Assembly: GCA_041652815.1 (NCBI GenBank)
Contig: JBAZGN010000001.1
Span: 182,315 to 246,314, forward strand
Source: Candidatus Omnitrophota bacterium
GTDB lineage: Bacteria > Omnitrophota > Gorgyraeia > Duberdicusellales > 4484-171
Length of the DNA: 64,000 bases
Direction of reading: 5' to 3'
The notes under the pieces are model-generated. The model saw only the letters and a program-made list of their open reading frames with translations, did not search any database and had not been told where the DNA came from. Positions 5,834 through 42,807 of this stretch are shown here, piece by piece (positions within the stretch are counted from its first letter, which is position 1; every line of letters starts with the position of its first letter). The position numbers and the translations under genes were made by a program.

Positions 5834-6025
5834 TCTACCCCGTGGATTTCGTGGATTTACTGATATTGTAACCGTTTTCAAATGTTCTTAAGATATAGCA
5901 TTTTAATCAAAGAATGTCAAGTCGAAAATTTAAGATTTTTGTAACTTACTAAGGTGCAGTAACTTATGAAGTAGGAATTTATGTGCGTTTAATTCAAAGG
6001 CTCTTTACCCCTTGCGCCCAGATAT

Positions 6026-6066
6026 CGTGTGAATTTTCTCGGCCTGCGGCCAGGAAAATTCACACG
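6026..6066 (-). promoter_or_regulatory. Perfect 13-bp stem / 15-nt loop hairpin in the tpsB-tpsA intergenic region
   Basis: cgtgtgaattttc-[tcggcctgcggccag]-gaaaattcacacg; the loop itself contains the palindrome ggcctgcggcc. No U-tract follows on either strand. Confidence 0.5.
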
Positions 6067-6085
6067 AAGCGCTGCGGGGTTAATT

Positions 6086-6128
6086 CACACTATTATTTTT
6101 TCGGTGTGCACGCCGAAAAAATAATGTG
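6086..6128 (-). promoter_or_regulatory. Second imperfect hairpin immediately 3' of the tpsB stop
   Basis: cacactattattttttcgg-tgtgcac-gccgaaaaaataatgtg. The arms are complementary apart from a 2-nt bulge; the element sits 5 nt downstream of the tpsB stop codon. Confidence 0.4.
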
Positions 6129-6132
6129 CTCA

Positions 6133-7842
6133 TTAAAACCGCCAGCTGAACTCAACCCAAGGATGCGCACGGTTGCCATCCGAAGGAAGCTTGCCGAGCG
6201 GATAACCCATTTCAAATTTCAAAGATAAATCTTTTACGTTAAATCTTACGCCGTATCCCCAACCGCGAAGAGTGTCGCTCTTTTCTTCTCCGGCCTGAGG
6301 GTTGTTAAGGCGGCTGTTCGCCCAGTCATAAAAACAGACCAGCCTTACGGCATCATAAAGCCGGCTTCCGGTTGTAGGCACCATTATGCCTTTAGGCAAA
6401 CCATACACGGGAAACGACCACTCCGCAGAAGAATATATTCCCTTATCTCCCGCAAATTCACCCGGGCCGTAACCACGCACGCTTTGCGCGCCGCCGATTT
6501 GAAACTGCTCTGCCGCGGCTAAATTATAATTGGAAAGCTGCGCGGAATTTTTTAATAAAAGGGATGAAGAAAAAGGCATTGGCTGCAACCTGTAGAAGTT
6601 AAAAACTCCTTTAACGAACTGGCCGCCGGCACCAACGCGCGATGCCTTGGAGTCTTTCGCGGTTAAGCCGCCCCACATACGCGGTATGCCTACGTCTATT
6701 TCAGGAGTAATAATCGTTCTGCCAAACTTATCCGTAATATCAATGTCCAGGCCATTTTTGATAACCCGCATTTCGTCACGGGAAGATTCTGCGCCGGAAA
6801 GATAGTTTTTAATATCTTTATAATCAAAGCCGAAATTATATCGTAAATCAAGTATCCTGTTTTCAAATACGGCCCGGTTTACGAATATACCGGCGATATT
6901 GGCCTTGCCTACGGCACTTAAAGCGCGAAATTCCTTTCCCAGCACCAAACGGCTATAAGAATAATAACCGCCGATTTCTGTTTTTTCGTTTACCGGATAG
7001 ATATATCTTACGTTTTTTAAGCTATAAAGGCTTTTTTGCGACATTTGATATTTAAGGTACAACTTGTCATCAAATCCCAATAAATTATTATTTTCATAAA
7101 CAAATGCCCATCGGTTTTTTTCCATATAGCGGGAACCGAAATTATCATAGTCAAAACCTATATGTATGGGGAGCCTATCCTTTACCTCTATTACTATGTC
7201 GGTTGTGCCGGGCTCAACACCGGGGACTAAAATGGCTTTCGCCATTCTGTCGGGGTTTTCATTTATATAGGTAAGAGAATTTTGGAGGATATCGTAATCG
7301 AAGTAATCTTTCGGTTTAAGTTTAATTTTTTTTTCCAACAAAGATGTGCGGAAGTAGCGGTTTCCTTTAATATCGATTTTACCCACTTTGCCTTCAATAA
7401 TTTTTATTGTCAGAATACCGTCTTTAATGGTCTGCGGCGGAAGATAGGCGCGGGAAGTGGTATAACCTTTCTTTCTATAGCTTTCGGTTATTTTATCGGC
7501 AATCTTCTGCATTTCAGAAAGAGCCAGGTCTTTGCCTTCATATCCGGAAACTATACCTTTTAACTCCTTCTCTGAAAGCAAGGTAGCGCCTTCAACGACT
7601 ATTTTCTTTATCTGGACTTTTTTGGTATCTGCAGGCAGAGGCGCTTCCTTAACGGGTTCTTCTTTAATTTCCGGCTTTTTCTTTTTCGTTTGAATTTGCT
7701 GCTCGATTGCCTTTTGCTCTTCAAGGGCTCTGTCACGCTGTTCAGTAGCTCCTATTGTCTGCGACGGCGGCACTGTTTGGGCAAATGCGCCAAAAGATAA
7801 GATAATTATAGCAGTAAAAATTGAAGCGATTTTTAAGTTCAT
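6133..7842 (-). CDS. TpsB outer-membrane transporter of two-partner secretion (ShlB/FhaC/HecB family: POTRA + beta-barrel)
   Basis: 569 aa with a signal peptide (MNLKIASIFTAIIILSFGAFAQ), a K/E-rich linker and POTRA-like region, and a C-terminal barrel ending in an aromatic (WRF). It lies immediately upstream of the TpsA gene on the same strand. Confidence 0.75.
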   Translation of the reverse strand: MNLKIASIFTAIIILSFGAFAQTVPPSQTIGATEQRDRALEEQKAIEQQIQTKKKKPEIKEEPVKEAPLPADTKKVQIKKIVVEGATLLSEKELKGIVSGYEGKDLALSEMQKIADKITESYRKKGYTTSRAYLPPQTIKDGILTIKIIEGKVGKIDIKGNRYFRTSLLEKKIKLKPKDYFDYDILQNSLTYINENPDRMAKAILVPGVEPGTTDIVIEVKDRLPIHIGFDYDNFGSRYMEKNRWAFVYENNNLLGFDDKLYLKYQMSQKSLYSLKNVRYIYPVNEKTEIGGYYSYSRLVLGKEFRALSAVGKANIAGIFVNRAVFENRILDLRYNFGFDYKDIKNYLSGAESSRDEMRVIKNGLDIDITDKFGRTIITPEIDVGIPRMWGGLTAKDSKASRVGAGGQFVKGVFNFYRLQPMPFSSSLLLKNSAQLSNYNLAAAEQFQIGGAQSVRGYGPGEFAGDKGIYSSAEWSFPVYGLPKGIMVPTTGSRLYDAVRLVCFYDWANSRLNNPQAGEEKSDTLRGWGYGVRFNVKDLSLKFEMGYPLGKLPSDGNRAHPWVEFSWRF

Positions 7843-10653: not shown

Positions 10654-10724
10654 AATGGAAAAGGTTAAGGTTGAGGTTAAGCTATAATATACTCTTGACC
10701 TCAACCTTAACCTGAGTTTATATT

Positions 10725-11663
10725 ATGGTTAAATTAAAAATAATGGTCGTTGACGACGACCCTGATATTTTGGAACTTCTCAAGGCAACCCTGGAAGAAG
10801 AATACGAAGTTATCAGTGCCGCCCTTGGCAACGAAGCTATAGAAAAATTAAAAAGCCAGGTGCCTGACCTATTGGTTTTAGATTATATGCTTCCTGACAT
10901 TCAGGGGCCGCAAATATGTAATATTTTAAGAAAAGACCCGCTGCTTGTGCATTTGCCCGTGCTGATGCTGACCGGCAAAGGAGAAATCGAAGATAAGGTA
11001 AAAGGGCTTGAGTCAGGTGTTGATGATTATATGGTAAAGCCTTTTTCACCGCAGGAGCTTACTGCGAGAGTGCGAATGCTTATACGGCGGTCGAATATCA
11101 ATTTAGACGCAAACCCTTTAACGCGGCTTCCCGGAAACGTTTCAATAAACCGCGAACTGGATGAAAAGATAAAAAGCAAAGAAAAGTTTGCCGCGCTTTA
11201 TATCGATTTGGATAACTTCAAAGCGGTAAATGACTACTACGGCTTTGAAAGAGGCGACGAGGTAATAAAAGAAACCGCCCGCATTTTAATCGATGCCATT
11301 TCAAAAGAAGGCACCACAAAAGATTTCATCGGCCATATCGGCGGAGATGATTTCTTTATCATAACCTCTCCGGAAAAGGGCGAAGAAATAGCAAAAAAAA
11401 TAATAAGTGATTTCGATAAAGTATCTCCCAAATTTTTTGATGAAAAAGACAGGATAAAAGGCTTTATCGAAACAAAGGGGCGTGACAACGAAATACATAA
11501 ATTCGGATTTATTACTATCTCTGTGGGAATAATAACCAACTTATACAGAGAGTTCACGCATACCGCACAAATAAGCTCGCTCGGAGCAGAAGTTAAGGGG
11601 TTTGCCAAAAAATTCGCTCAAAGTAAATATATTTTCGACAAAAGAACCGAGCAGAAATACTGA
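10725..11663 (+). CDS. Response regulator: REC domain fused to a GGDEF-family domain with non-canonical GGDDF signature
   Basis: REC motifs (MVVDDDPDILELL, phospho-acceptor in LVLDYMLPD, MLTGKG, KPF). GGDEF-domain motifs are NPLTRLPGN, DLDNFKAVNDYYG, RGDEVIK, then GGDDF where GG(D/E)EF is expected. Confidence 0.8.
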   Translation: MVKLKIMVVDDDPDILELLKATLEEEYEVISAALGNEAIEKLKSQVPDLLVLDYMLPDIQGPQICNILRKDPLLVHLPVLMLTGKGEIEDKVKGLESGVDDYMVKPFSPQELTARVRMLIRRSNINLDANPLTRLPGNVSINRELDEKIKSKEKFAALYIDLDNFKAVNDYYGFERGDEVIKETARILIDAISKEGTTKDFIGHIGGDDFFIITSPEKGEEIAKKIISDFDKVSPKFFDEKDRIKGFIETKGRDNEIHKFGFITISVGIITNLYREFTHTAQISSLGAEVKGFAKKFAQSKYIFDKRTEQKY

Positions 11664-11754
11664 ATACGAATTACCACGAATTTGAAACGAATTGCCACTA
11701 ATTAAAACCTATTTAAATAGTTCCAAAAAATAAATATAGTTGTCAGAGTAACGG

Positions 11755-12525
11755 TTGTATGATATATATAATCTTCCTAAAAATAAACATAGTATGCCAA
11801 AATTAGAAGTTAACGATAATTTTTTCAAAAATTGGTCACCAGATATGGCTTATGTTTTAGGTTTGATTACCGCTGATGGATGCCTCATAAAACATAAAAA
11901 TGGCCATAGGAGTTTGGATATTACTTTAAAAGATAAAAGATTACTGGAAGATATTAAAAAACTATTAAATTCCGAGCACAAAATAGGTAAAAAAACCAGA
12001 GGATACCGTCTACAAATTAAAAACAAAACTTTGTATAATGATCTTTATAGCTTAGGGCTAACTCCAAGAAAATCTAAAACTATTAGGTTCCCTGCCGTAC
12101 CTCCGAAATATCTTTCTGATTTTGTACGAGGTTATTTTGACGGTGATGGCAGCGTTTGCGTATGGAAAGAAAAACGCTGGAAAAATAGTTTACAAATCAG
12201 AACAACTTTTGTTTGCGGGAGCTTACCTTTTTTAAAATCATTAAAAACCAATCTCTCTGAATATGGCGAACTAGATAAAGGTAAAATATGGGGAGGAAAC
12301 AAAAACAACAGAGCGGCTTATGAGCTTCATTACGGGATAAATGATAGCTTAAGATTGTTTAATTTTATATATAAACCTCAAAGCTTTCCCTATTTAAACC
12401 GAAAAAAACAAAAGTTTGAGTTCTTTATAAAATCAAAAAATAATTTTCCATCTGCGAGAGTGGCGGTCAACAACCTTTGCCAAAGGCAAAGCTTCTTTAA
12501 TGTTGTTGCCCGCATAAGCTATTAA
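11755..12525 (+). CDS. LAGLIDADG-family homing endonuclease, free-standing (two-motif, single-chain type)
   Basis: Two LAGLIDADG motifs at the expected spacing (LGLITADGCL and VRGYFDGDGSV). The protein is basic with a K/R-rich C-terminal half. The true start may be the internal Met of MPKLEVNDN. Confidence 0.8.
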   Translation: MYDIYNLPKNKHSMPKLEVNDNFFKNWSPDMAYVLGLITADGCLIKHKNGHRSLDITLKDKRLLEDIKKLLNSEHKIGKKTRGYRLQIKNKTLYNDLYSLGLTPRKSKTIRFPAVPPKYLSDFVRGYFDGDGSVCVWKEKRWKNSLQIRTTFVCGSLPFLKSLKTNLSEYGELDKGKIWGGNKNNRAAYELHYGINDSLRLFNFIYKPQSFPYLNRKKQKFEFFIKSKNNFPSARVAVNNLCQRQSFFNVVARISY

Positions 12526-12668: not shown

Positions 12669-12745
12669 TTTATTTATTAACGTTTAGCGGGTAACGTATA
12701 GTATTGAATTACTAAACGCTCTACGCTAAACGTTAATAAAATGGT
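12669..12745. terminator. Dyad-symmetric element between convergent tRNA-Leu and rex (putative bidirectional terminator)
   Basis: ttaacgtttagcg ... cgctaaacgttaa, a perfect 13-bp inverted repeat, flanked by tgttttattta on the tRNA side and taaaatgg on the rex side. Confidence 0.45.
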
Positions 12746-13410: not shown

Positions 13411-13575
13411 TTATTAAATAACCAATAACCAAGATACAAGATACAAACAATATTCAAATTCCAATAACCAATGACCGAACGGAAACATTGATTTTTGTTT
13501 GATTATTGAGATTTGGTTATTGGTCATTGTTTGGTTATTGTATCTTGGAGCTTGGTTATTTCTCCAGCTATTTTA
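13411..13575. repeat. Copy A of a ~150-bp palindromic 'ggttattg/caataacc' intergenic repeat family
   Basis: aataaccaataaccaagatacaagatacaaacaat ... attgtttggttattgtatcttggagcttggttatttctccagctat. The last ~45 nt are identical to copy C (32.2 kb). It lies between the hypE stop and the rex start. Confidence 0.7.
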
Positions 13576-14601: not shown

Positions 14602-14612
14602 CTAATTGATCC

Positions 14613-14683
14613 TAGATGCCAGATGCTGGATGCTCGTTGTCCTTGTTTTTTACGAGTATCAAGCATCTAGCATCAAGCATCTA
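14613..14683. repeat. Intergenic dyad element built from 'agatgc' words
   Basis: tagatgccagatgctggatgctcg - ttgtccttgttttttacgag - tatcaagcatctagcatcaagcatcta. Confidence 0.5.
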
Positions 14684-15460: not shown

Positions 15461-16453
15461 TTAATGAGATTCTTCTTTTCTATCTTTCTTCTTGAAGAGG
15501 TCAAGGAACTTATCTTCATATTCTGTATAAACATTCCAATGGTCAAGCTCGTCTTTAAGCTTTGTGGCTTTGGTTATATCTTTTTGCGATTCCTTGAAAA
15601 GCCCCTCTATTTTTTCTCTGGCAGACTGCGGAAGCTTACTGTAAGCAGCTAAATCTTTTTTAAGTTTTTCTATATCCTCTTCGCTTAAAGGAGTTGAAGT
15701 CGGCTCAGGGACTTCTCCCTTAAGGTAACTTATCAGTTTATCTATTTCTGTTTCGATAAATTTTGCTCTGTCAGTTAAAGGCAAAAGGCTTAAGTTTAAA
15801 CCAAGATAGTCATTTATAATTTTTAAAATGCTTGCGCTGGCTTTTGGATTTTCTATCTGCACGGTATAAAAAGGAATTTCCCCCAAAAGACAAGCACCGC
15901 GAAGGCCGCGGCCTTTTGCAACGCCAAGGATAAGCCCGTTAAGCCCGCTGATTTGGCCTTCTTTCAGGGGCTTGACGCCAAATTTAGCAAATTCTTTTAA
16001 TATTTCGTCATGTGTTGCCACAATTCTTACCGAAGACGGCGTTTTGTGGTCTATAGCTTCAGGCTTTGCGGCGAAAGTAAGTATAAATTTAGCTTTATAT
16101 TTTTTGACAAAATCAATTATAGCGCAAGACAATTCTTCTGCGCGTTCAAGGGGCGGCTGCACTTCCCCCATGAAAAGAATTATGTCCGGTGATTTTTTAC
16201 CTTTTACGTAATAGAAAAATCCGGCAGGCATTGAAGGCAATTCCAGTATCCCCTTTTCAACAACCACCGCGGCGGGCTTAAAGAATTCTCCGGATTCAAG
16301 CTTAGCAAACATCTTAAAACCCATTACTTCACGAAGAAATAATACGCTTCTGTAGGCTACCTCTCCCATCCCAGGCCAGGCAGCAATAAAAATTGGGTTC
16401 TTTAATTTTGGAGTTGCTACTTCTTTAATCATTTTTGTTGCACAGATTAGCAC
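15461..16453 (-). CDS. PAC2-family (proteasome-assembly-chaperone-like) protein
   Basis: The N-terminal block IFIAAWPGMGEVAYRSVLFL and overall length and composition resemble PAC2/DUF75 proteins. The C-terminus is acidic and coiled-coil. Confidence 0.45.
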   Translation of the reverse strand: MLICATKMIKEVATPKLKNPIFIAAWPGMGEVAYRSVLFLREVMGFKMFAKLESGEFFKPAAVVVEKGILELPSMPAGFFYYVKGKKSPDIILFMGEVQPPLERAEELSCAIIDFVKKYKAKFILTFAAKPEAIDHKTPSSVRIVATHDEILKEFAKFGVKPLKEGQISGLNGLILGVAKGRGLRGACLLGEIPFYTVQIENPKASASILKIINDYLGLNLSLLPLTDRAKFIETEIDKLISYLKGEVPEPTSTPLSEEDIEKLKKDLAAYSKLPQSAREKIEGLFKESQKDITKATKLKDELDHWNVYTEYEDKFLDLFKKKDRKEESH

Positions 16454-16569
16454 AGATTTTGAAGCGGATGATCACAGATATTAATCTGTTATCTGTGTTG
16501 TATAATCTATCATAAACTACTCAAAAAACAAGGACGATTTACTTCAGGCTGATAGCTGACGACTGACAG

Positions 16570-18329: not shown

Positions 18330-18680
18330 CTGTAATATATTATCACAGAGGGTTAAAAAGGCAAAGTGGGGTGTTGGAAATTGGTTGGTGAAGTTAATTA
18401 CCCCTCGCGCCTGAATATCGTATAAATTTTCCACGCTTGTTTCACAAGCAGGAAAATTTATACGAAGCGCTTCGGGGGTGTTTTTTTGCTGCCCGAAGGA
18501 CAGCAAAAAAACACCCTGCCATCAGTCCGTCTCAGGCTTGCTGCATACAGTCCGTTTCTCATACAAGTGGGTGCTTCATCCTATTCGCCTCAGCGAAAGG
18601 AAATTCAGCTCCCGTGTATTAGGTGTTGGCTGTAGCACTTTAACCTGTTGACGCAACAGGCAGGGTTAATTTTCCCTTTC
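18330..18680. ncRNA. GC-rich, highly structured non-coding island (candidate small RNA or leader; identity unknown)
   Basis: 490 bp without a credible ORF in an otherwise densely coding, AT-rich context. Nested perfect hairpins: aaccctctgtaatatattatcacagagggtt; cgtataaattttcc-[acgcttgtttcacaagcag]-ggaaaatttatacg; mutually exclusive cttcggg/cccgaag versus gggtgtttttttgctg/cagcaaaaaaacaccc. On the minus strand, the segment from ccctgcctg to caggg (~150 nt) closes on itself. Confidence 0.35.
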
Positions 18681-20256: not shown

Positions 20257-20280
20257 TTTGCCTCCTTATTGATTTGCGAT

Positions 20281-20550
20281 AACGTCTCTCGGTTACGGTT
20301 ACGATGCCCGTTTCGTCTTACGGTTACGTTTTACGTTTCAATTAAAATAACCAATAACCAAGGTACAAGATACAAACAATATCCAAATTCCAATTACCAA
20401 TAACCAAACAAAAACGTTTGGTTATTGAATTTTGGTTATTGCTCATTGTTTGGTTATTGTTTCTTGTATCTTGGTTATTTATTTCCATAGGCGTTACCGC
20501 TAAACGTAACCGAAACGGGCTTCGTTGCCGTTACCATAGCCGCTATCAAA
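20281..20550. repeat. Copy B of the 'ggttattg' palindromic element, nested inside an outer 'cggttacg' inverted repeat (total ~270 bp, near-perfect dyad)
   Basis: Outer arms are cggttacggttacgatgcccgtttcg and cgaaacgggcttcgttgccgttacc. The inner part is aataaccaataaccaaggtacaagatacaaacaat ... attgtttggttattgtttcttgtatcttggttatt. Confidence 0.7.
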
Positions 20551-20554
20551 ATTT

Positions 20555-20998: not shown

Positions 20999-21063
20999 AC
21001 CATCTCCTTTTCAATGAGCACAGCATTTTTTCGAGCCGCCCTGGCGAAGAAAAAATGTTGGCT

Positions 21064-25226: not shown

Positions 25227-25389
25227 AACAGAAATTATGTTACCGCTTCGGCTTTAGATTTGCAACGAGAAAGTATCACGTATCAGGTAACACGCAACAG
25301 GCCTTTAAAAACGTGATACGTCCACTCCAAGTGGACTCGCCTAAATGTTTTTATATGGTGGCGAGGTTACGTGCGACGTGATACCTAAT

Positions 25390-28234: not shown

Positions 28235-28414
28235 AATTTTTTTGCACAGATAAAGGTTGCGTTAATCGGTTGCGGTTACGCTACTCGTTACGTCCATCGT
28301 CAATCGGTTGCGTTTGGAAGACGATAGACGATTAACGCAGCCGAAACTAGTGGCGCAACCGCAAGACGTATGACGATATGCTGAATCTATGATCATCTGC
28401 TATCTTACCTGCGA

Positions 28415-29548
28415 TCATCTGTTTCTAAAATATTCATCCAGCCCTCTAACATACTCTTCCAAAACTTTTATGCCTTTATCCAGATTAGCTATTTTAACTG
28501 ATTCATTTTTTGCGTGGGCGTTTCCTTTTGAGCCGAAACCGAAAGCAAAAGATTCAATCCCGATATCTTTTAAGAAGGTTATTACAGTTGCGCCAAAACT
28601 TGGGGCTATTTTTCCTTCTATATTATTTTTTTTAAGAACGCTGCGCAATATCTTAATCACCGGAATATTTTTATCTATCTCAAGCGGGCTTTGATGAGCC
28701 AATATTTTTATTTTATATTTTATTTTCTGCTTCTTTATTATTTTTTCTATATTCTTTATAATCTCTTTCTCCTTCATTTTCGGCAGGTATCTTATATCTA
28801 TATCGAAAAAAGCGTAGCCGGCAACTATATTTACTTTATCTCCTCCGACGAACCTTCCTATATTTAAAGTGGGTTTCTTTAATAAAGTATGCGTAGCAAA
28901 CGGAAACTTTCTTTTTAAAATCTCATTTAGTATAAATACTCCTTTCTCTACTGCATTTATTCCTCTCTCCGGATATGCTCCGTGCGCCTCGCGTCCAGTG
29001 AGTTCAACTCTCAGATGCAGGAGCCCTTTTTGTGCAACAACAATATCAAACTCGTCAGCATCTAACACAATTGCATAGTCCGCTCCTTTTAGATGTTTCA
29101 CAAGCGGAATTATACCGTTGTGGCTGCCGGTTTCTTCATCGCCGGTAAAGGCAAAAACCAAATCGATGTTTTTGAGAGTTGTTTTTTCTTCTTTTAGTTT
29201 TTTTATGAGATAAAGCGCAGCTGCCACATTAATTTTACAATCAGTTGCGCCTCTGCCATACATTCTTCCTTTATATATTTTTGCAGAAAGCGGAGGCACG
29301 TGCCATTTACCGTTTGCCGGCACTGTATCAACGTGAGGAGTAAACAGAATCTTTTTCTTTGGATTTTTTGAAGTTAATTTACAGACTAAATTGAGCCTGT
29401 CTTTTTTAAATTCATAAATTTTAGAAGCAATACCCAAGCTTTTAAGATAGTTACGGATGAAATAAATTATCTTTCTTTCGTTACCCGGGGGGTTTTGTGA
29501 ATCTATCTTAATTAGTTTTTGAAGCAAATTTATCGGGCTCTGTTTCAT
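28415..29548 (-). CDS. M20-family metallopeptidase (ArgE/DapE-like deacylase)
   Basis: HVDTVP, GRGATDCK, a dimerisation domain, and a C-terminal metal-ligand block. Confidence 0.75.
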   Translation of the reverse strand: MKQSPINLLQKLIKIDSQNPPGNERKIIYFIRNYLKSLGIASKIYEFKKDRLNLVCKLTSKNPKKKILFTPHVDTVPANGKWHVPPLSAKIYKGRMYGRGATDCKINVAAALYLIKKLKEEKTTLKNIDLVFAFTGDEETGSHNGIIPLVKHLKGADYAIVLDADEFDIVVAQKGLLHLRVELTGREAHGAYPERGINAVEKGVFILNEILKRKFPFATHTLLKKPTLNIGRFVGGDKVNIVAGYAFFDIDIRYLPKMKEKEIIKNIEKIIKKQKIKYKIKILAHQSPLEIDKNIPVIKILRSVLKKNNIEGKIAPSFGATVITFLKDIGIESFAFGFGSKGNAHAKNESVKIANLDKGIKVLEEYVRGLDEYFRNR

Positions 29549-31481: not shown

Positions 31482-31490
31482 ATTTTAAAC

Positions 31491-31567
31491 ACGAATCACC
31501 ACGAATTTGGAACGAATTGCCACGTCCCGCCCTTTAATATTTTTATTAGCGTGACGTGGCAATTCGT
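31491..31567 (-). promoter_or_regulatory. Phased ACGAAT x3 direct-repeat array merging into a 15-bp-stem hairpin, immediately 5' of the PilZ-fusion start codon
   Basis: ACGAATcaccACGAATttggaACGAATtgccacgtc-[26 nt]-gacgtggcaattcgt. The repeat spacing is 10 and 11 bp. The start codon is at 31481. Confidence 0.45.
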
Positions 31568-31569
31568 GT

Positions 31570-31749
31570 CCTAAGCTTTATATAACAGATTTTTTGCGAA
31601 TATGCAAACTTACCCGCGAATCAGTCCCGAGGTAACGTCGTGACGGTTCAGCCACCAAACCAGACCGAAGGTCGATTTAGGGCTGCCCTGAACCGAATTT
31701 ATTCTGGTTTAGGGCGGGGTTACGTCCATTACTACCAAGCAATAGAGCT
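31570..31749 (-). ncRNA. GC-rich structured 5' leader of the PilZ-fusion gene; candidate riboswitch (c-di-GMP-I/GEMM-like similarity noted, unverified)
   Basis: A 268-bp gap between co-directional genes with locally elevated GC. Read on the minus strand, GGACGUAACCCCGCCCUAAACC resembles the GGACGCAAAGCC...CCUAAACC core of GEMM-I aptamers (Vc2-type); this is recalled from memory, not searched. Confidence 0.3.
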
Positions 31750-32133: not shown

Positions 32134-32174
32134 GTCGCCTCACTCCATTACACAGATTACACAGATGTTTTATA

Positions 32175-32320
32175 AAATAATCAATAACCAAGATACAAGA
32201 TACAAACAAATCTCAATATCCAATAACCAAACGAAGATGTTGGTCATTGTTTGGTTATTGAGATTTGATTATTGGTCATTGTTTGGTTATTGTATCTTGG
32301 AGCTTGGTTATTTCTCCAGC
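32175..32320. repeat. Copy C of the 'ggttattg' palindromic repeat family
   Basis: aatcaataaccaagatacaagatacaaacaa ... attgtttggttattgtatcttggagcttggttatttctccagctat. The 3' end is identical to copy A. Confidence 0.7.
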
Positions 32321-36180: not shown

Positions 36181-36300
36181 GGTTTAGTTTTTAGTTCTAA
36201 GTTCTAGGTTCTAAGTTCTAGGTTTTAAGTTGTGGGTTATAAGTTTTTCCCAAATTTGTTAGCGTTGGGTTTACCTTAGAACTTACAACTTATCACTTAG
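36181..36300. repeat. Intergenic dyad element built from 'gttctag/gttctaa' words
   Basis: tagttctaagttctaggttctaagttctaggttttaagttgtgggttataag ... cttagaacttacaacttatcacttagaacta. Confidence 0.5.
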
Positions 36301-36302
36301 AA

Positions 36303-36788
36303 CTAATATGTTATTGCCAACCGTTCGTTTTTCTCTTTTTTTGTCAGGATTACTCCGTCTTCCTTATATTTCTTAAGCATAAAGTGGGTAACTGCTCCTT
36401 TTACCGAACTTAAGGGAGCAAGCTTCTCGGAAACAAAACTTGCTACTGTATGGATGTCTTTACCCTCAACTGTTAAAAGCAAATCATAGGTTCCTGAAAG
36501 AAGATAGCAGTTTTTTACTTCCGGAAACTTGAATATCCTTTCCGCTACCGCGTCAAAACCTACATCTTTTTGCGGCGTTATTCTTACCTCGATTAAAGCG
36601 ACTACACCGTTTGCACCTTTAAGTTTTTCTTTATTTATTACCGCTTTATATTTTACTATTATTCCTTTTTTCTCGTAATCCTTTATCGCCCTTTCAATTT
36701 CTTTTTTGCTTTTACCGGTAAGTTTTACTAAATCTTCCAAAGGAACACGTGCGTTAGTTTCCAATATTTCTAATATCTCATCCATATT
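36303..36788 (-). CDS. Lrp/AsnC-family transcriptional regulator
   Basis: HTH_AsnC N-terminus MDEILEILETNARVPLEDLVKLTGKSKKEIERAIKDYEKKGII and a RAM domain. The likely start is the internal Met at 36788. Confidence 0.8.
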   Translation of the reverse strand, partial: NMDEILEILETNARVPLEDLVKLTGKSKKEIERAIKDYEKKGIIVKYKAVINKEKLKGANGVVALIEVRITPQKDVGFDAVAERIFKFPEVKNCYLLSGTYDLLLTVEGKDIHTVASFVSEKLAPLSSVKGAVTHFMLKKYKEDGVILTKKEKNERLAITY

Positions 36789-36943
36789 AACCTCCGTTTT
36801 TGCACAGATAATCACAGGTACGAAACAGATGATCACAGATTGTTTAAAAAGTAGCACGTATTAAGTAACAGGTATCACGTTTTAAAAAACCTGTTACCTG
36901 TTACTTGCTACGTTTTACATAATCTGTGTATAATTGTATCAAA

Positions 36944-38056
36944 TTACGCGCCATATTCATAGTAAATTCTACAAGTGCCCTCAAAAGATACCATGCAAGG
37001 ACCAAGAGGGTTATCCACTGTGCAGCGTTTTTTAAATTGCGGGCACTCGGATGGGCTTATCTTTCCTTTTACTACATCCACACAGCGGCAATTGATATTT
37101 TTTATTTTTCCATGGGCTAACGGTTTATCTATTAGTTTTTCTGCGTCAAAATTCTTGTATCTTTCATTTATAAACAGGCCGCTTTTTTTTATCACGCCAA
37201 AACCGCGCCAAGCAGCATCTTTAATATCAAATACCTCGTTTATTAATTTCATAGCAGAAATATTGCCGCCTGGCTTAACTACTCTGTTATATTCATTTTC
37301 CAATTTATATTTTCCTTCGCTTATTTGAGAACAGATTTTATAGATGGATAAAACCATATCCAGCGGCTCAAAACCGCAAATTACGCAAGGGATGTTGTAT
37401 TTTTTTACAATTTCTCTATATGGCACTTCACCTATAATTACCGAAACATGCCCCGGGCAGAGAAAACCATCTACTTTTATTTCGCTGTCTTCACAAAGCA
37501 AGTTAAGAGCGGGGGGGATAACCCGGTGCGCAGAAAGTACAAAAAGATTATTAAGTTCATTTTTTTGGGCTTCTTTTAATATGGAAGCTGTAAGCGGGGC
37601 TGTTGTCTCAAAACCCACAGCCAAAAAAATTATTCTTTTTTGCGGATTTATTTTCGCAAGCTCTAAAACCTCGCTTGGGGAGTATATTACCGATATATTT
37701 GCGCCATATGCATGGGCTTCTTCTAAGCTCGATACCGTACCTTTTACTTTTATAAGATCGCCGAAAGTAGCTATGATATTTTGCTTATCTTTACACAGAA
37801 AAAGCGCCTTATCTATAAAGCTATCTTCGGTTATACAAACCGGGCATCCTGGCCCAGAAATTAAATTTATATTATCGGGAAGCAGTTTCTTTAGCCCGAA
37901 TCTGAAAAAAGTATAAGTATGCGTTCCGCATACTTCCATTATGTTTATCTTTTTTTTCAATCCCAGGCTTTGGATTGCGCGGATAATTCTTCGTATTACT
38001 TTTTTATTTCTTAGAAGATTTTCGGTAAGCACTTTTATACTCCTTAAAACCATCAA
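36944..38056 (-). CDS. hypD: [NiFe]-hydrogenase maturation factor HypD
   Basis: MEVCGTHT (CGxH), GPGCPVC, GFETTAP and CPGHVSVIIG, the canonical HypD motifs. Confidence 0.85.
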   Translation of the reverse strand: MMVLRSIKVLTENLLRNKKVIRRIIRAIQSLGLKKKINIMEVCGTHTYTFFRFGLKKLLPDNINLISGPGCPVCITEDSFIDKALFLCKDKQNIIATFGDLIKVKGTVSSLEEAHAYGANISVIYSPSEVLELAKINPQKRIIFLAVGFETTAPLTASILKEAQKNELNNLFVLSAHRVIPPALNLLCEDSEIKVDGFLCPGHVSVIIGEVPYREIVKKYNIPCVICGFEPLDMVLSIYKICSQISEGKYKLENEYNRVVKPGGNISAMKLINEVFDIKDAAWRGFGVIKKSGLFINERYKNFDAEKLIDKPLAHGKIKNINCRCVDVVKGKISPSECPQFKKRCTVDNPLGPCMVSFEGTCRIYYEYGA

Positions 38057-38240
38057 GTATATCTTTAACCTTGCTTGAGTCGAATTTCTCTATGGCAAAA
38101 CCTGCATGAACCATTACAAAATCTCCCTTTTGGGCATTTTTAAGAAATTCGATATTAACATCCCTTTTAATTCCTTCGGCTTCAACGGACGCGTGAGTGC
38201 CTTTTATTTCAATTATTTTCATCGGATACGCTAAGCACAT
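38004..38240 (-). CDS. hypC: [NiFe]-hydrogenase maturation factor HypC
   Basis: Starts MCLAYP, the conserved HypC N-terminus with Cys2. About 78 aa, overlapping the hypD start. Confidence 0.8.
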   Translation of the reverse strand: MCLAYPMKIIEIKGTHASVEAEGIKRDVNIEFLKNAQKGDFVMVHAGFAIEKFDSSKVKDILDGFKEYKSAYRKSSKK

Positions 38241-38424
38241 ATTTACTCCTAATGAGCACATCATTTTTCCAAGCTGCCTGTCCAGACAGGCGCGCAGAAA
38301 AAATGATAGTGCGAATTATCCCGAAGTGCTCTCAAAAAATATCGAACGAGTACTTGCGTAGAGAGATTTTTTGAGTATACAGGCACTTCGGGATTTTTCA
38401 TATCCCCAACAAAAATTCTTAACC

Positions 38425-40728
38425 TTAACCTGTTTTTTCATTCGCAACAACGGCTTGCCCCACAGATACTCCCGAATCGTTGGTTGGGATTCGTTTATGA
38501 TAATGGACACAGAACCCTTTTTCTTTAAGTAACTTAACCGTTAAGTCTAAAAGCAGTATGTTCTGAAATACTCCACCGGAAAATGCTACATCATTTATGC
38601 CGTAGTCGCTTCTTAAACGAATGGACATTCCCCTTATAATCTTTGCGCAGGTAAAATGAAATTTATACGCGATAGATTCTTTATTTTTTCTTGCTTTTAA
38701 ATCCCTGATAATTCCCGAAAAAATATCCTGCCAGTTTATTATATAAACACCCTGTTCCTTATTGATTGAAAAATCAAAACAACTATCACTTGGCTTTGAT
38801 TTACCTGCTGCCATTTCCAAAGAAACAGCTGCTTCTGCCTCATAACTAATTGAGTGTTTTATATCTAAAATGCTTGCAACGGCATCAAACAGCCGGCCTG
38901 CTGATGAGGTCATAATAGTTTCTTTGTTTTTTATGAGCCTGCAAAAAATATTTTTCTCTATTTTTTTAAAATAATTTACGCAAGCAAGGTTTAGTTTAAA
39001 TAAATTTTCACCGTATATATCATAGAGCGTATAAAATGCTACTCTTGCCGGGGTAACAGCCGCCTTATCTACTCCGAGCAAACCAAAGTATTTAAAATGC
39101 CCGGCGCGCTTAAAACTACATTTATCTGTCACAAAAAATTCTCCTCCCCAAATAGCATTATCAAGCCCCAAGCCTGCTCCATCGAAGCAAACCCCGATTG
39201 CCTTTTTCTCCACATTATTTTCCAAAAGGCAGCCTGCCAAATGCGCATGATGATGCTGCACAGCTATTTTTTGAACCCGCTTCAACGAAAGCGCATACTG
39301 GGTTGAAAGATAATCCGGGTGCAGGTCGTGGGCAACAACTTCGGGTTTAAAATTCAATATTTTCTCGTAATGCGAAAGTGTTTTAAGGTACGCTGCGTAA
39401 TTTGCGTAATTTTTCAAATCGCCAAGATAAGGCGAACTTACGATACGACCGCGCGCTGCCAATGAAAATGTATTTTTCAGCTCTGCTCCGCAGGCAAGAA
39501 TTTCTTTTTTATGCGTGAAATTTATAAAATCAGGGGTGTAACCCCTTGCTTTTCTTATGATAATTTCTTTATTTTGAAACACTCTTGCTATAGAATCGTC
39601 ACATTTTATTTGTATGATTCTATTATGCACAAGAAAATAATCTGCATATTTTTCAATTTGGCAAAGTTCCTTTTCAGAAGCGACCAAAGGAAAATCACCC
39701 TTATTAGCAGATGTCATAACCAGCGCAGGAAACCTTTGAAACTTTTTAAGGTAATGAAAAAGAAGATAATGCAAGGGCGCATAACAAAGCATTACTCCTA
39801 GAAAATTTTGCGAAGGCGCAGCTTCGGCAATCCAGGAAGTATTTTTCTTTATCTCTAAGAGAGTTATTGGCCTGGCGAGGCTTTCGATAAGCTTTTTTTC
39901 GCTGCTTGCGATAGCGCAAATTTCGGATACTGCCCTTAAATCTTCAACCATTATTGCGAAAGGCTTTGCAGGCCGGCTTTTAAGGCGCCGTAGGCGCCTT
40001 ACAGCGCTAATGTTTTTTGCATCGCAGGCTAAATGGTAGCCGCCAATCCCCTTTACAGCAATGATTTTTCCGCCTGCTATCAGCCTTGCTGTTTTTCCCA
40101 ATATTTCCTGCACGTTTGAAGAAAAAACTTTTTCTTTTTTTATTTCTTTCAGGCTTTTAAAAAGTTTTATCTGCGGGCCGCAGGAAAAACACGCATTCGG
40201 TTCAGCATGAAACCTGCGATCTGCCGGATTAGTGTATTCCTTAGAACACAATTGGCACATTTTAAAATGTTTCATCGTTGAATTTTTCCTGTCATACGGA
40301 ATATCTTCGATTATGCTAAATCGCGGCCCGCAATTAGTGCAGTTTATAAAAGGGTAAAGGTAGCGGCGGCAATTTTCGTCAAAGAGTTCGCGGAGACAGT
40401 CTTTACATATTGCGATATCTGCGGGGAAAGAAGCAATTCTATTTTCTTTACAACGGCTTTCTATTATGTTGAATTTTTCTTCTCCGGCTAAAGGAATCTG
40501 TTCCTTCCTTATTTTATTTATGCTGCTAATTGCCGGCGCGGTTATTCTAAGCTCATCTATAAAATCTTTTATTCGGCTACTTTCTCCCTCAAGCTCAACA
40601 GTCACACCCCTTGAATCATTAAATACACACCCGCCGAGCTTAAATTTCCTGGAAAGCCTAAACACGTGCGGCCGGAAACCCACCCCCTGGACAATCCCTC
40701 TTATGTGAAGTTTTATTCGTTGCTTCAT
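38425..40728 (-). CDS. hypF: Carbamoyltransferase HypF
   Basis: Acylphosphatase domain (VQGVGFRPHVF), two Zn-finger pairs (CKDCLRE...CTNCGPRFSI; CQLCSKEY...CFSCGP), and YrdC and Kae1-like domains. Confidence 0.9.
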   Translation of the reverse strand: MKQRIKLHIRGIVQGVGFRPHVFRLSRKFKLGGCVFNDSRGVTVELEGESSRIKDFIDELRITAPAISSINKIRKEQIPLAGEEKFNIIESRCKENRIASFPADIAICKDCLRELFDENCRRYLYPFINCTNCGPRFSIIEDIPYDRKNSTMKHFKMCQLCSKEYTNPADRRFHAEPNACFSCGPQIKLFKSLKEIKKEKVFSSNVQEILGKTARLIAGGKIIAVKGIGGYHLACDAKNISAVRRLRRLKSRPAKPFAIMVEDLRAVSEICAIASSEKKLIESLARPITLLEIKKNTSWIAEAAPSQNFLGVMLCYAPLHYLLFHYLKKFQRFPALVMTSANKGDFPLVASEKELCQIEKYADYFLVHNRIIQIKCDDSIARVFQNKEIIIRKARGYTPDFINFTHKKEILACGAELKNTFSLAARGRIVSSPYLGDLKNYANYAAYLKTLSHYEKILNFKPEVVAHDLHPDYLSTQYALSLKRVQKIAVQHHHAHLAGCLLENNVEKKAIGVCFDGAGLGLDNAIWGGEFFVTDKCSFKRAGHFKYFGLLGVDKAAVTPARVAFYTLYDIYGENLFKLNLACVNYFKKIEKNIFCRLIKNKETIMTSSAGRLFDAVASILDIKHSISYEAEAAVSLEMAAGKSKPSDSCFDFSINKEQGVYIINWQDIFSGIIRDLKARKNKESIAYKFHFTCAKIIRGMSIRLRSDYGINDVAFSGGVFQNILLLDLTVKLLKEKGFCVHYHKRIPTNDSGVSVGQAVVANEKTG

Positions 40729-40877
40729 TTTGCTTTTTTATTACGCAGATGATCGCAGATGCAAAACAGATGATCGCAGATAAGAAGATAGAAATACAAT
40801 TGTATATCTACTGTATTTCCACCGTATTTCTATCGTATATCAATTACAGTGAAATTTATCTGTGAACATCTGTGTTA
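40729..40877. repeat. Intergenic dyad element built from 'cagatgatcgcagat' words
   Basis: acgcagatgatcgcagatgcaaaacagatgatcgcagataag ... atctgtgaacatctgtgttatc. Confidence 0.5.
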
Positions 40878-42445: not shown

Positions 42446-42807
42446 TTTTACCTCCTCTTGTTAGTCCACAGTCCATAGAGAGCGAAGCCTCCCCGCAGGG
42501 GACCATAGTCCATAGTTTTAAATCTGTGGGCTATCGACTGTCGACTATGGACTATTTTTAGAATAGGCAATATTTTAACAACAGTGGGGTTTAAAGTAAA
42601 TAGAATTATTTTGTGGCTTTGGAATCAACTGTCCCTGTTTTTAATATGACTTGCTATGGCTTAAAATGTTATAAAAATTAGTAAAGATGAGTTTTTAGGT
42701 CTCGCGGGTTTTTTATTTGCCCCTCGCAGGGCAACAGCCCTTTCCATCATTTGCCTGCAGGCATAGCCTCATCCGCCGGAAGCGGGCAGGGAATTCTGAC
42801 AAAGAAG

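What the first reader, a model, noticed from the sequence alone, without database searches (positions are those of the whole stretch)
36181..36300. Pervasive locus-specific 'word palindromes' filling intergenic spacers
Besides the shared family above, most other spacers are dyad-symmetric arrays built from one private 6-8-mer used in direct and inverted orientation:
- agatgc at 14613-14683
- cacagat at 16440-16520 and 36790-36850
- gttctag at 36181-36300
- cagatgatcgcagat at 40729-40877
- cgttaatcg / gttacg at 28250-28330
- ccatagtccatag at 42460-42560
- ggttaagg at 10662-10713
- atcccgaagtgc at 38320-38395
- gtatcacg at 25280-25385
This is far more structured than ordinary AT-rich spacers. 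It suggests a genome-wide process, such as slippage-generated hairpins selected as bidirectional terminators or protein-binding sites, or the action of a palindrome-generating mobile element.
Basis: seen in the sequence. Interest (0 to 1): 0.5.

Follow-up and report, generated by a model that had tools for sequence, protein, structure and literature searches.

The report
Heptamer-built hairpin repeats filling Omnitrophota spacers
The odd "word palindromes" between genes are real: they are small hairpin-forming repeats whose arms are 7-base tandem repeats, and they belong to families that related genomes carry at other sites, so this is a new example of a known but poorly understood kind of bacterial repeat and not a locus-private novelty.

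Summary
Observation: real and non-random. Of 31 spacers ≥50 nt, 12 fold far better than dinucleotide shuffles (z<-3), against 1 of 62 coding controls. The spacers at 10-43 kb have a strong 7-nt periodicity (lag-7 z=11.9). Three independent assemblies reproduce the 36181-36302 hairpin, so it is not an artefact.

"Private words" is mostly wrong. The organism is a Candidatus Omnitrophota MAG. In about 100 kb of syntenic relatives, most of the window's word families recur at non-orthologous spacers: AATAACC, AGATGC, ACGAATT, GAAATAC, GTAACAGG/GTATCAC and CACAGAT. Orthologous spacers often hold a different hairpin or none. Elements are nested: AATAACC sits at the apex of a GGTTACG hairpin, and CACAGAT arms enclose different inner hairpins. 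Only the GTTCTAR hairpin has no homologue so far.

Best reading: these are dispersed, REPIN/MITE-like hairpin repeats whose arms are heptanucleotide microsatellites. They are copied between spacers and remodelled by 7-nt slippage. The copying enzyme is unknown.

The hairpins do not look like intrinsic terminators and show no strand bias. One sub-class behaves like a conserved regulatory site: CACAGAT/ATCTGYG words lie 9-18 nt upstream of start codons, and one cluster is 100% conserved.

Precedent: heptameric SSRs, and inverted GGGAATC pairs in Xanthomonas. Moderate interest.

The parts
36184..36306 (.). GTTCTAR hairpin, the finding itself. It has about 8 degenerate AGTTCTA/GGTTCTA units, a roughly 30-nt centre with a small CCCAA/TTGGG stem, and 4-5 inverse units. 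It fills the AsnC-to-aminotransferase spacer.
   Evidence: I10, I16, I17; z=-5.7. Identical in 3 other assemblies except 36254. No homologue in relatives or in 120 metagenome loci.
10662..10713 (.). GGTTAAG hairpin (20-bp arms, 95% complementary) between the histidine-kinase and response-regulator genes.
   Evidence: I25; z=-6.9; z=-8.05. Word-level matches at L013 1342-1428 and L138 4317-4375, both non-orthologous.
12673..12740 (.). TTAACG/ACGTTTAGCG hairpin just after tRNA-Leu.
   Evidence: I15; z=-6.0; z=-6.1
13416..13563 (.). AATAACC-family element, copy 1. It is about 148 nt, with a CAA core every 7 nt in one arm and TTG in the other.
   Evidence: The relative L138 has only a 39-nt spacer at this position.
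14608..14681 (.). AGATGC hairpin.
   Evidence: z=-6.4; z=-6.95. Homologous, including the loop, to L013 3615-3701 and similar to L007 6308-6414, both non-orthologous.
16440..16500 (.). CACAGAT word cluster with the palindrome ACAGATTAATATCTGT, lying upstream of the PAC2 gene. This is the 'empty' form of the CACAGAT arms.
   Evidence: Positions 16421-16540 are 100% identical to L138 while the flanking genes are about 86%. Whole-spacer fold z=+0.4.
20269..20549 (.). Nested hairpin. Outer GGTTACG-word arms (about 20269-20344 and 20483-20549) enclose AATAACC-family copy 2 (20345-20482) at the apex.
   Evidence: I2, I3; z=-9.4; z=-11.5, one continuous hairpin
20999..21063 (.). AATGAGCACA...ATTTTTTC palindrome family. 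It is not heptamer-based and lies just upstream of a Shine-Dalgarno sequence and start codon.
   Evidence: (z=-3.25). Related copies at window 38230-38300 and L138 10267-10340.
25273..25385 (.). GTATCAC/GTAACAC words with inverse copies.
   Evidence: period 7 and 14; z=-2.3, weak
28245..28414 (.). Composite element. Outer CACAGAT / AGATGATCGCAG arms enclose an inner CGTTAATCG/GGTTGCG hairpin.
   Evidence: At the orthologous spacer L135 keeps the outer arms but has a different inner element. Whole-spacer z=-1.7.
31482..31573 (.). ACGAATT/CACGAAT hairpin. It is retained at the orthologous spacer in L135 and L007 with changed unit numbers.
   Evidence: A non-orthologous copy at L007 7318-7374 shares the loop sequence. 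Direct copies occur at window 11661-11703.
32147..32315 (.). CACAGAT words (32147-32166) next to AATAACC-family copy 3 (32175-32315). This copy has a 7-nt deletion in one arm.
   Evidence: I5, I6; z=-7.1
36803..36928 (.). Composite element. Outer CACAGAT/ATCTGTGATCATCTG arms enclose a GTAGCACG / GTAACAGG inner hairpin.
   Evidence: I7, I12; z=-7.3; z=-6.3. The inner part is 81% identical over 73 nt to L138 1736-1807, which is non-orthologous.
38230..38394 (.). An AATGAGCACA-family palindrome (38230-38300) followed by a plain ATCCCGAAGTGC inverted repeat (38318-38394).
   Evidence: (z=-9.6). Matches L138 10273-10356, non-orthologous.
40729..40877 (.). Composite element. Outer CACAGAT / ATCTGCGATCATCTG arms enclose a GAAATAC/GATATAC inner hairpin.
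   Evidence: z=-4.1. The inner part matches L007 15940-15996 and the outer part matches L014 122-170 and window 28403-28424.
42456..42560 (.). GTCCATAG / CTATCGA word hairpin with a GC-rich inner stem.
   Evidence: period 7 at 42531-42555; whole 362-nt spacer z=-2.2

Best explanation
The spacers of this Candidatus Omnitrophota genome are populated by several families of small (about 50-300 nt) non-coding hairpin-forming repeats. Their arms are degenerate heptanucleotide tandem repeats.

Shown:
- The hairpins and the 7-nt period are far beyond chance.
- The families are shared by related genomes at non-orthologous spacers, with the same irregular order of variant units. They are therefore copied from place to place and not invented locally.
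- Occupants of a given spacer turn over between relatives.
- Elements are nested, one sitting at the apex of another.

Inferred mechanism: an element is copied into a spacer, preferentially into the loop of an existing palindrome. The copying could be trans-acting transposition or recombination; the enzyme is unknown and no transposase lies in the window. The arms then grow, shrink and drift by replication slippage in 7-nt steps. Pairing persists mainly at a conserved 3-4-nt core of each heptad.

Most copies are probably selfish or near-neutral spacer filler inside co-directional gene strings. One sub-class is probably a genuine cis-regulatory site: the CACAGAT/ATCTGYG words lie 9-18 nt upstream of five start codons, and one cluster is perfectly conserved.

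The GTTCTAR hairpin at 36181-36302 has the same architecture. It has no known second copy, so it may be a low-copy family member or a locally generated array.
For: Structure and periodicity.

Organism and relatives.

Dispersal:
- The AATAACC family is 84-88% identical over 146-162 nt at three window sites and in the L013 HypD-to-AsnC spacer.
- The AGATGC hairpin is homologous to L013 3615-3701, including the loop.
- The ACGAATT element matches L007 7318-7374, including its loop.
- The GTAACAGG inner hairpin matches L138 1736-1807.
- The GAAATAC inner hairpin matches L007 15940-15996.
- A roughly 100-nt composite is duplicated within L135 at 94% identity.

Turnover: orthologous spacers carry different words or none. 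L138 has a 39-nt spacer where the window has an AATAACC copy. The remote relative L223 has compact spacers.

Nesting.

Slippage: period 7 dominates, and one AATAACC copy has a 7-nt arm indel. Heptamers are the commonest long SSR class in prokaryotes (Mrazek 2007, as summarised in PMC4679880).

Precedent for inverted heptamer-array pairs: Xanthomonas (PMC4692102).

Breadth: an inverted partner accompanies 33 of 96 unrelated metagenomic GTTCTAR arrays.

CACAGAT sub-class: 30 matches against 8 expected, start-proximal, with 120 nt at 100% identity.
Against: - No transposase, RAYT or other candidate mobilising gene lies in the window or the relatives' loci.
- No target-site duplication or clean empty site could be defined, because the flanks are too diverged.
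- No copy-number polymorphism appears among the 99.5-99.98% identical strain contigs, so slippage is not fast.
- Some matches are low-complexity and could be convergent: the GGTTAAG family rests on 92% over 25 nt, E=6e-4.
- The GTTCTAR hairpin itself has no second copy in the sequence available.
- The conserved heptad cores and long-lived orthologous hairpins (ACGAATT, and ATCAG at the AsnC-to-aminotransferase spacer) leave room for selected function.
Confidence: 0.6

Rival explanations
1. In-situ generation. Each spacer grows its own palindrome by 7-nt replication slippage plus intrastrand template switching (quasipalindrome correction), with no movement between loci. Shared words would then reflect a limited set of slippage-prone seeds.
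For: - Period-7 arrays with private-looking words.
- The GTTCTAR hairpin has no homologue elsewhere.
- Any heptamer forms arrays at similar rates in viral contigs: 20 hits against 15, 17 and 32 for permuted words.
- Unrelated genomes of 33-70% GC carry GTTCTAR arrays, often with an inverted partner, so this architecture does arise independently.
- Orthologous hairpins change unit number in place.
Against: - Families share long, irregular unit orders and even loop sequences at non-orthologous sites, 84-94% identical over 100-160 nt. Convergence cannot produce that.
- The arms are not near-perfect complements, as template-switch correction would make them. Pairing is confined to heptad cores.
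Confidence: 0.2
2. RNA-level operon punctuation. The hairpins are selected intercistronic structures, acting as RNase III or other processing sites, 3'-exonuclease blocks, or non-canonical terminators, and set the relative expression of neighbouring genes.
For: - They fill spacers between co-directional, closely spaced genes from just after the stop codon to about 10-15 nt before the next start.
- Long imperfect duplexes are RNase III-type substrates; this is established knowledge, not tested here.
- Some hairpins persist at orthologous spacers across about 15-20% nucleotide divergence.
Against: - No G-U strand asymmetry: sense and antisense strands fold equally well, and the GTTCTAR hairpin folds better on the antisense strand.
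- Only 1 compensatory pair in the AATAACC family.
- No stem-plus-T-tract terminator signature, and no enrichment of terminator-like sites.
- Occupants are swapped or absent in relatives, and absent from the 43-64 kb gene cluster.
Confidence: 0.12
3. Protein-binding arrays. Each word is the heptad operator of a DNA-binding protein, as with the contiguous 7-bp heptads in direct and inverted orientation bound by the ribbon-helix-helix omega repressor of pSM19035 (recalled from memory).
For: - Each heptad has a conserved 3-4-nt core with variable remainder.
- Units occur in both direct and inverted orientation.
- CACAGAT/ATCTGYG words are enriched 30 against 8, sit 9-18 nt upstream of five start codons, and one cluster is 100% conserved over 120 nt.
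- The Nostoc and Beggiatoaceae literature proposes regulators for start-proximal heptamers.
Against: - At least seven unrelated words would need as many proteins.
- Arrays hop between functionally unrelated spacers and are frequently replaced.
- Many lie directly after stop codons.
- No cognate gene is linked to them.
- This reading is plausible only for the CACAGAT sub-class.
Confidence: 0.08
4. Artefact or chance: assembly chimeras, or ordinary AT-rich spacer composition.
For: Repeats often break assemblies, and several metagenomic arrays sit at contig ends.
Against: - Three independent assemblies give the same sequence.
- z-scores reach -11.5, with 0 of 200 shuffles as good.
- Coding controls behave as the null.
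Confidence: 0.01

Closest known systems
Inverted pairs of heptameric SSRs (GGGAATC) in Xanthomonas intergenic regions (Rehm et al. 2015, PMC4692102)
   Same: Tandem heptamer arrays occur twice in convergent orientation on opposite strands, close together and intergenic, and can form stem-loops or cruciforms. Repeat length differs between related genomes while the type (single array or inverted pair) is kept.
   Different: Xanthomonas has one G-rich, G-quadruplex-prone word genome-wide. Here there are many AT-rich words, elements are nested, and whole hairpins including loops are copied to non-orthologous spacers.
Heptanucleotide long SSRs / cyanobacterial STRR repeats (Mrazek 2007, via PMC4679880; Calothrix heptanucleotides, cited in PMC4692102)
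   Same: The unit length is 7, the location is intergenic, many different words occur, and slippage is the proposed origin. In the metagenome loci carrying GTTCTAR arrays, period 7 is also the modal period of the other arrays.
   Different: The classic descriptions are of direct arrays. Here most arrays have an inverted partner and behave as dispersed composite elements.
REPINs / REP elements mobilised by RAYT transposases (Bertels & Rainey 2011, PMC3116915; PMC3733652)
   Same: They are short intergenic palindromic units that form hairpin doublets, exist as within-genome families, and are non-coding and dispersed.
   Different: No GTAG/CGTC tag is visible at the element ends. No RAYT was seen. 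The arms are heptad-periodic and much longer than 20-40 nt. Copy number is unknown.
MITEs
   Same: They are small, non-autonomous, dispersed elements with inverted-repeat architecture and are AT-rich.
   Different: No target-site duplication and no parent IS were identified. The whole element is a hairpin, not TIRs flanking a core.
Start-codon-proximal TAACTGA heptamer repeats of Beggiatoaceae, cyanobacteria and Bacteroidetes (MacGregor 2015, PMC4679880)
   Same: The ATCTGYG words lie within about 9-18 nt of start codons, often where no clear Shine-Dalgarno sequence is present. They are repeated 2-3 times and recur at many genes.
   Different: The word is different. The spacing is about 10 nt (ATCTGYGATC) instead of 7. 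The words are usually paired with inverted copies upstream.

Membership tests
Heptanucleotide long SSR (STRR-like) tandem repeats | Head-to-tail repeats with a 7-nt unit, more copies than chance allows | tested here: met
   TRF finds period 7/14/21 arrays in 10 spacers. Lag-7 identity is 0.349 against 0.270, z=11.9.
Heptanucleotide long SSR (STRR-like) tandem repeats | Predominantly intergenic | tested here: met
   Coding regions show no lag-7 excess (0.271). Nearly all arrays lie in spacers.
Heptanucleotide long SSR (STRR-like) tandem repeats | Unit-number variation by slippage between close relatives | tested here: inconclusive
   There are no indels among the 99.5-99.98% identical strain contigs. 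One 7-nt indel occurs between AATAACC paralogues, and unit numbers differ in orthologous ACGAATT hairpins.
Inverted heptamer-repeat pairs (Xanthomonas GGGAATC type) | Two arrays of the same heptamer in convergent orientation, close together, intergenic | tested here: met
Inverted heptamer-repeat pairs (Xanthomonas GGGAATC type) | A single G-rich word with G-quadruplex potential | tested here: not met
   The words are AGTTCTA, AATAACC, AGATGCY, ACGAATT, GGTTAAG and others. None has G-runs, and there are many words.
REP / REPIN | Inverted doublet of a short palindromic unit forming a hairpin, in multiple dispersed copies | tested here: met
   AATAACC occurs three times in 64 kb plus once in L013. 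Other families occur at non-orthologous sites.
REP / REPIN | Conserved GTAG or CGTC tetranucleotide at the REP end; 20-40 nt units | tested here: not met
   The element ends read AAATAACC...GGTTATTT, and the arms are 30-70 nt. No GTAG/CGTC tag is seen at the other hairpin ends.
REP / REPIN | Cognate RAYT (Y1 HUH transposase) in the genome | not testable with these tools
   None among the annotated genes of the window and loci. Only 64 kb of a contig of at least 811 kb is visible.
MITE | Target-site duplication flanking the element | tested here: inconclusive
   No shared direct repeat appears at the four AATAACC copies. The 'empty' orthologous spacer in L138 cannot be aligned to the flanks.
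MITE | Parent autonomous IS with the same terminal inverted repeats | not testable with these tools
   There is no transposase in the available sequence.
Rho-independent (intrinsic) terminator | Short GC-rich stem followed by a T/U tract | tested here: not met
   None of the 23 terminator-like sites in 25-43 kb coincides with a word palindrome. The count is not above shuffles (17.3 +/- 4.3).
Known RNA families (Rfam) | Match at gathering score | tested here: not met
   Only tRNA-Leu and 6S RNA are found in the window.

The most novel reading that the evidence does not exclude
Omnitrophota of this clade may harbour a previously undescribed copying process that places heptad-periodic hairpin modules specifically at the apex of existing palindromes, building 'Russian-doll' spacers. 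The enzyme would be unidentified. The same process might underlie the inverted heptamer arrays seen in roughly 15-35% of unrelated metagenomic heptamer arrays. That would make 'SSR palindromes' a widespread, distinct class of bacterial repeat with its own mechanism, separate from REPIN/RAYT and classical MITEs.
Probability: 0.2. Interest if true: 0.6.

Novelty: new variant of a known kind. Interest (0 to 1): 0.35.

Why it matters
Why heptamers dominate long bacterial microsatellites has been an open question since 2007, and so has what intergenic heptamer arrays do. This locus set gives a tractable comparative system. Several word families, syntenic relatives at about 80-90% identity, nesting and clear turnover let three processes be separated: copying, slippage and selection. 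It is also a practical warning for annotation of candidate-phylum MAGs. These spacers are repeat elements, not terminators or private regulatory sites, and they inflate intergenic DNA. By my estimate from the spacer lengths they make up roughly 12% of 10-43 kb here, against 4% measured in a compact relative.

Tried and rejected
(1) GTTCTAR as a special cross-phylum motif. However, three permuted heptamers gave similar counts in viral contigs: 20 for GTTCTAR against 15, 17 and 32. None of the metagenome hits shares sequence outside the array. The word is therefore not special.

(2) Stop codons in all frames as the reason for period 7. This fits GTTCTAG/GTTCTAA but not AGATGC-type words, so I dropped it.

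(3) Intrinsic or bidirectional terminators. There is no support.

(4) RNA-strand-specific selection from G-U asymmetry. None was found.

(5) Covariation in the AATAACC family. Only 1 compensatory pair in 4 sequences, so it is uninformative.

(6) Target-site duplication or an empty site for AATAACC. The flanks are too diverged.

(7) Genome-contig scan with HypD. It returned only 42-47% relatives, which were useless for synteny.

(8) Exact look-ups of the TTG-start HypD and of the last gene in the window. Neither is on record.

(9) Region 1-6100 looked ORF-poor. In fact it is one ORF of at least 1962 aa on the minus strand that runs off the window.

(10) A literature search for Omnitrophota plus repeats found nothing specific. 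The Elhai 2008 small-dispersed-repeat paper is not in the library.

(11) timed out and was rerun.

Full report
**What is there**

The 122-nt spacer at 36181-36302 lies between an AsnC/Lrp-type regulator gene and a class I/II aminotransferase gene, both on the minus strand. It consists of:
- about eight degenerate AGTTCTA/GGTTCTA units;
- a centre of roughly 30 nt with a small CCCAA/TTGGG stem;
- four to five inverse units (CTTAGAA/TAGAACT).

It folds far better than dinucleotide shuffles: z=-5.7 as RNA, and z=-4.2 as DNA on either strand with 0 of 200 shuffles as good.

The pattern extends across the window. Of 31 spacers ≥50 nt, 17 have z<-2, 12 have z<-3 and 11 have z<-4. The 62 length-matched coding controls give 4, 1 and 0 (Fisher p=3e-6).

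What the differently worded spacers share is a 7-nt period. Pooled lag-7 identity is 0.349 against 0.270 in shuffles (z=11.9), with echoes at lags 14, 21 and 11. TRF calls period 7/14/21 arrays in ten spacers.

All structured spacers lie between 10.6 and 42.8 kb. The eight spacers elsewhere behave as null (p=0.012). These include the low-GC exopolysaccharide cluster at 43-64 kb.

**Not an artefact**

Three contigs from three other samples and assemblers match the window at 99.5-99.98% identity with no indels. Within this hairpin they differ only at loop position 36254.

**Organism and relatives**

- The best named HypD relatives are Candidatus Omnitrophota MAGs.
- The window's proteins occur on an Omnitrophota MAG contig of 810,962 bp.
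- Syntenic relatives were recovered at about 90% (L013), about 83% (L006, L007/L008, L014) and 80% (L009) HypD identity.
- A 42.7-kb contig (L135 plus L138) is 80-87% identical in genes.
- A closed 1.8-Mb genome (L223) has 61% HypD identity.

**The words are not private**

Orthologous spacers in relatives usually hold a different hairpin or none. The AsnC-to-aminotransferase spacer is an example:

| Genome | Occupant of the spacer |
|---|---|
| Window | GTTCTAR hairpin |
| L013 | AGATAC/AGATGC hairpin |
| L135, L007, L014 | ATCAG/CTGAT-type hairpins |
| L009 | 46 nt, unstructured |
| L006 | 13 nt |

Conversely, the window's words reappear elsewhere:
- **AATAACC family.** The window copies at 13416-13563, 20345-20482 and 32175-32315 are 84-88% identical over about 146-162 nt to the L013 HypD-to-AsnC spacer.
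- **AGATGC hairpin (14608-14681).** It is homologous, loop included, to the L013 AsnC-to-aminotransferase spacer and resembles L007 6308-6414.
- **ACGAATT element (31482-31573).** It shares its loop with L007 7318-7374.
- **Inner hairpin of 36803-36928.** It matches the histidine-kinase-to-response-regulator spacer of L138, where the window has GGTTAAG instead.
- **Inner hairpin of 40729-40877.** It matches L007 15940-15996.
- **L135.** It carries a roughly 100-nt composite twice at 94% identity.

Shared irregular unit order and shared loops cannot be convergent. These elements are copied between sites. Only the GTTCTAR hairpin lacks a second copy in the roughly 120 kb of relatives and in the 120 metagenome loci.

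**Anatomy**

- **Nesting.** The whole 298-nt spacer 20257-20554 folds into one hairpin (z=-11.5). GGTTACG-word arms enclose an AATAACC element at the apex.
- **CACAGAT arms.** CACAGAT / ATCTGYGATCATCTG arms enclose three different inner hairpins in the window, at 28245-28414, 36803-36928 and 40729-40877. They enclose a fourth at the orthologous M28-to-GTPase spacer of L135. At 16440-16500 the same arms stand alone.
- **Pairing.** In the AATAACC family pairing is confined to a conserved CAA/TTG core every 7 nt. The variable remainder forms internal loops, and there is one 4-nt phase shift, which explains the lag-11 signal. Only one compensatory pair was seen.
- **Indels.** One copy has a 7-nt deletion in one arm.
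- **Strand.** Sense and antisense strands fold equally well, so there is no G-U asymmetry.
- **Terminators.** No hairpin matches a stem-plus-T-tract terminator, and such sites are not enriched.
- **Known families and genes.** Rfam finds only tRNA-Leu and 6S RNA. No transposase is present in the window.

**A separate sub-class**

CRCAGAT occurs 30 times against 8 expected, mostly in spacers. On the sense strand the proximal ATCTGYG word lies 9-18 nt upstream of the start codons of five genes: PAC2, the GTPase, the TPR protein, AsnC and HypF. The cluster at 16421-16540 is 100% identical to L138 although the flanking genes are about 86% identical. This behaves like a constrained promoter, operator or 5'-UTR element. 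It resembles the start-proximal TAACTGA repeats described in Beggiatoaceae.

**Wider context**

These share nothing with the window beyond the array.
- Three permuted heptamers are about as common in viral contigs: 20 hits against 15, 17 and 32. The word is therefore not special.
- In the metagenome loci period 7 is also the mode among all other arrays. This agrees with the reported predominance of heptamers among long prokaryotic SSRs (Mrazek 2007, as summarised in PMC4679880).
- An inverted partner within 150-180 nt accompanies 33 of 96 metagenomic and 7 of 19 viral GTTCTAR arrays, and 7 of 59 arrays of the permuted words. About 1% is expected by chance. The GTTCTAR figure may be inflated by the CTAG self-complementarity.
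- There is published precedent. Xanthomonas carries 70-75 convergent inverted pairs of GGGAATC heptamer arrays per genome (PMC4692102). Geobacter metallireducens has heptanucleotide-repeat families whose supplementary-figure legends describe the sequences looping from one strand to the other (PMC2700814).

**Interpretation**

- **Best supported (confidence about 0.6).** These are dispersed REPIN/MITE-like hairpin repeats whose arms are heptanucleotide microsatellites. They are copied between spacers, apparently often into the apex of existing palindromes, and are remodelled by 7-nt slippage. Most are selfish or near-neutral filler inside co-directional gene strings. The CACAGAT sub-class is probably regulatory. 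Copying is shown. The copying mechanism, the apex targeting and the neutrality are inferred.
- **Purely in-situ slippage plus template switching (0.2).** This may well explain single arrays such as GTTCTAR and the independent origins in other phyla.
- **RNA-level operon punctuation (0.12).**
- **Heptad operator arrays for DNA-binding proteins (0.08).**
- **Artefact or chance (0.01).**

**Verdict**

The "private word" reading and the terminator idea are not supported. The slippage and mobile-element ideas are each partly right. This is a new, multi-family, nested variant of a known but poorly understood kind, in a candidate phylum where I found no prior description. Interest is moderate.

Noticed in passing
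window 16421-16540: A 120-nt non-coding stretch upstream of the PAC2-family gene is 100% identical to the relative L138, while the flanking genes are about 86% identical. It contains the CACAGAT words and the ACAGATTAATATCTGT palindrome. This points to a strongly constrained promoter, operator, leader or small RNA.
   Followed up: partly
window 11755-12525 (+): A free-standing LAGLIDADG_3-domain ORF (homing-endonuclease-like) lies between the GGDEF response regulator and tRNA-Leu. The relative L138 has only about 265 nt there and no such ORF, so this is probably a mobile insertion.
   Followed up: partly
window 36933-40728 vs L135 10820-11162: The relative L135 lacks hypF-hypC-hypD between the RNase T-like gene and AsnC. 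It keeps a 143-nt remnant of the hypD 3' end (82.5% identity), so the lineage has lost the hydrogenase-maturation genes.
   Followed up: partly
window 1-7842 (-): An ORF of at least 1962 aa on the minus strand runs off the window start. It lies downstream of a ShlB/FhaC-type TpsB transporter gene (6133-7842), so this is a likely two-partner-secretion giant exoprotein. The region looked ORF-poor only because ORFs that run off the end are not listed.
   Followed up: partly
window 18509-18669 (-): A 6S RNA (Rfam RF00013, 47.4 bits, just above the gathering score) is about 90% conserved in L138.
   Followed up: no
window about 31590-31640 (within 31482-31749): The motif aatttgcatattcgcaaaaaatctgttatataaag is conserved at the orthologous spacer in L007, L009, L014 and L135. 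It reads as a sigma-70-like promoter (TTGCAT, 17 nt, TATATA) for the 657-aa PilZ-domain gene.
   Followed up: partly
window 20999-21063, 38230-38300; L138 10267-10340: A further dispersed palindromic family, not heptamer-based (AATGAGCACAnnATTTTTTC...GAAAAAAT), sits immediately upstream of Shine-Dalgarno sequences and start codons.
   Followed up: partly
window 43000-64000: A low-GC (31-36%) exopolysaccharide/glycosyltransferase cluster has unstructured spacers. It is only about 70% identical to L135, against 80-87% elsewhere. It may be a horizontally exchanged island that the hairpin repeats have not colonised.
   Followed up: partly
window 38419-38431 vs L013 1342-1428: The window keeps only the left arm (ggttaaggttaag) of the GGTTAAGG hairpin that L013 has intact at the orthologous HypF-to-HypC spacer. 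The right arm has been replaced by other palindromes, giving a snapshot of element decay and replacement.
   Followed up: partly
L223 6538-6626: The compact closed genome of a remote relative (61% HypD identity) has an ACAGA-word hairpin (AGACAGAAAACAGAAACCAGA ... TCTGTCATCTGTTTTCTG) in the YjbQ-to-RNase T spacer. CAGA-type word palindromes therefore extend across the clade.
   Followed up: no
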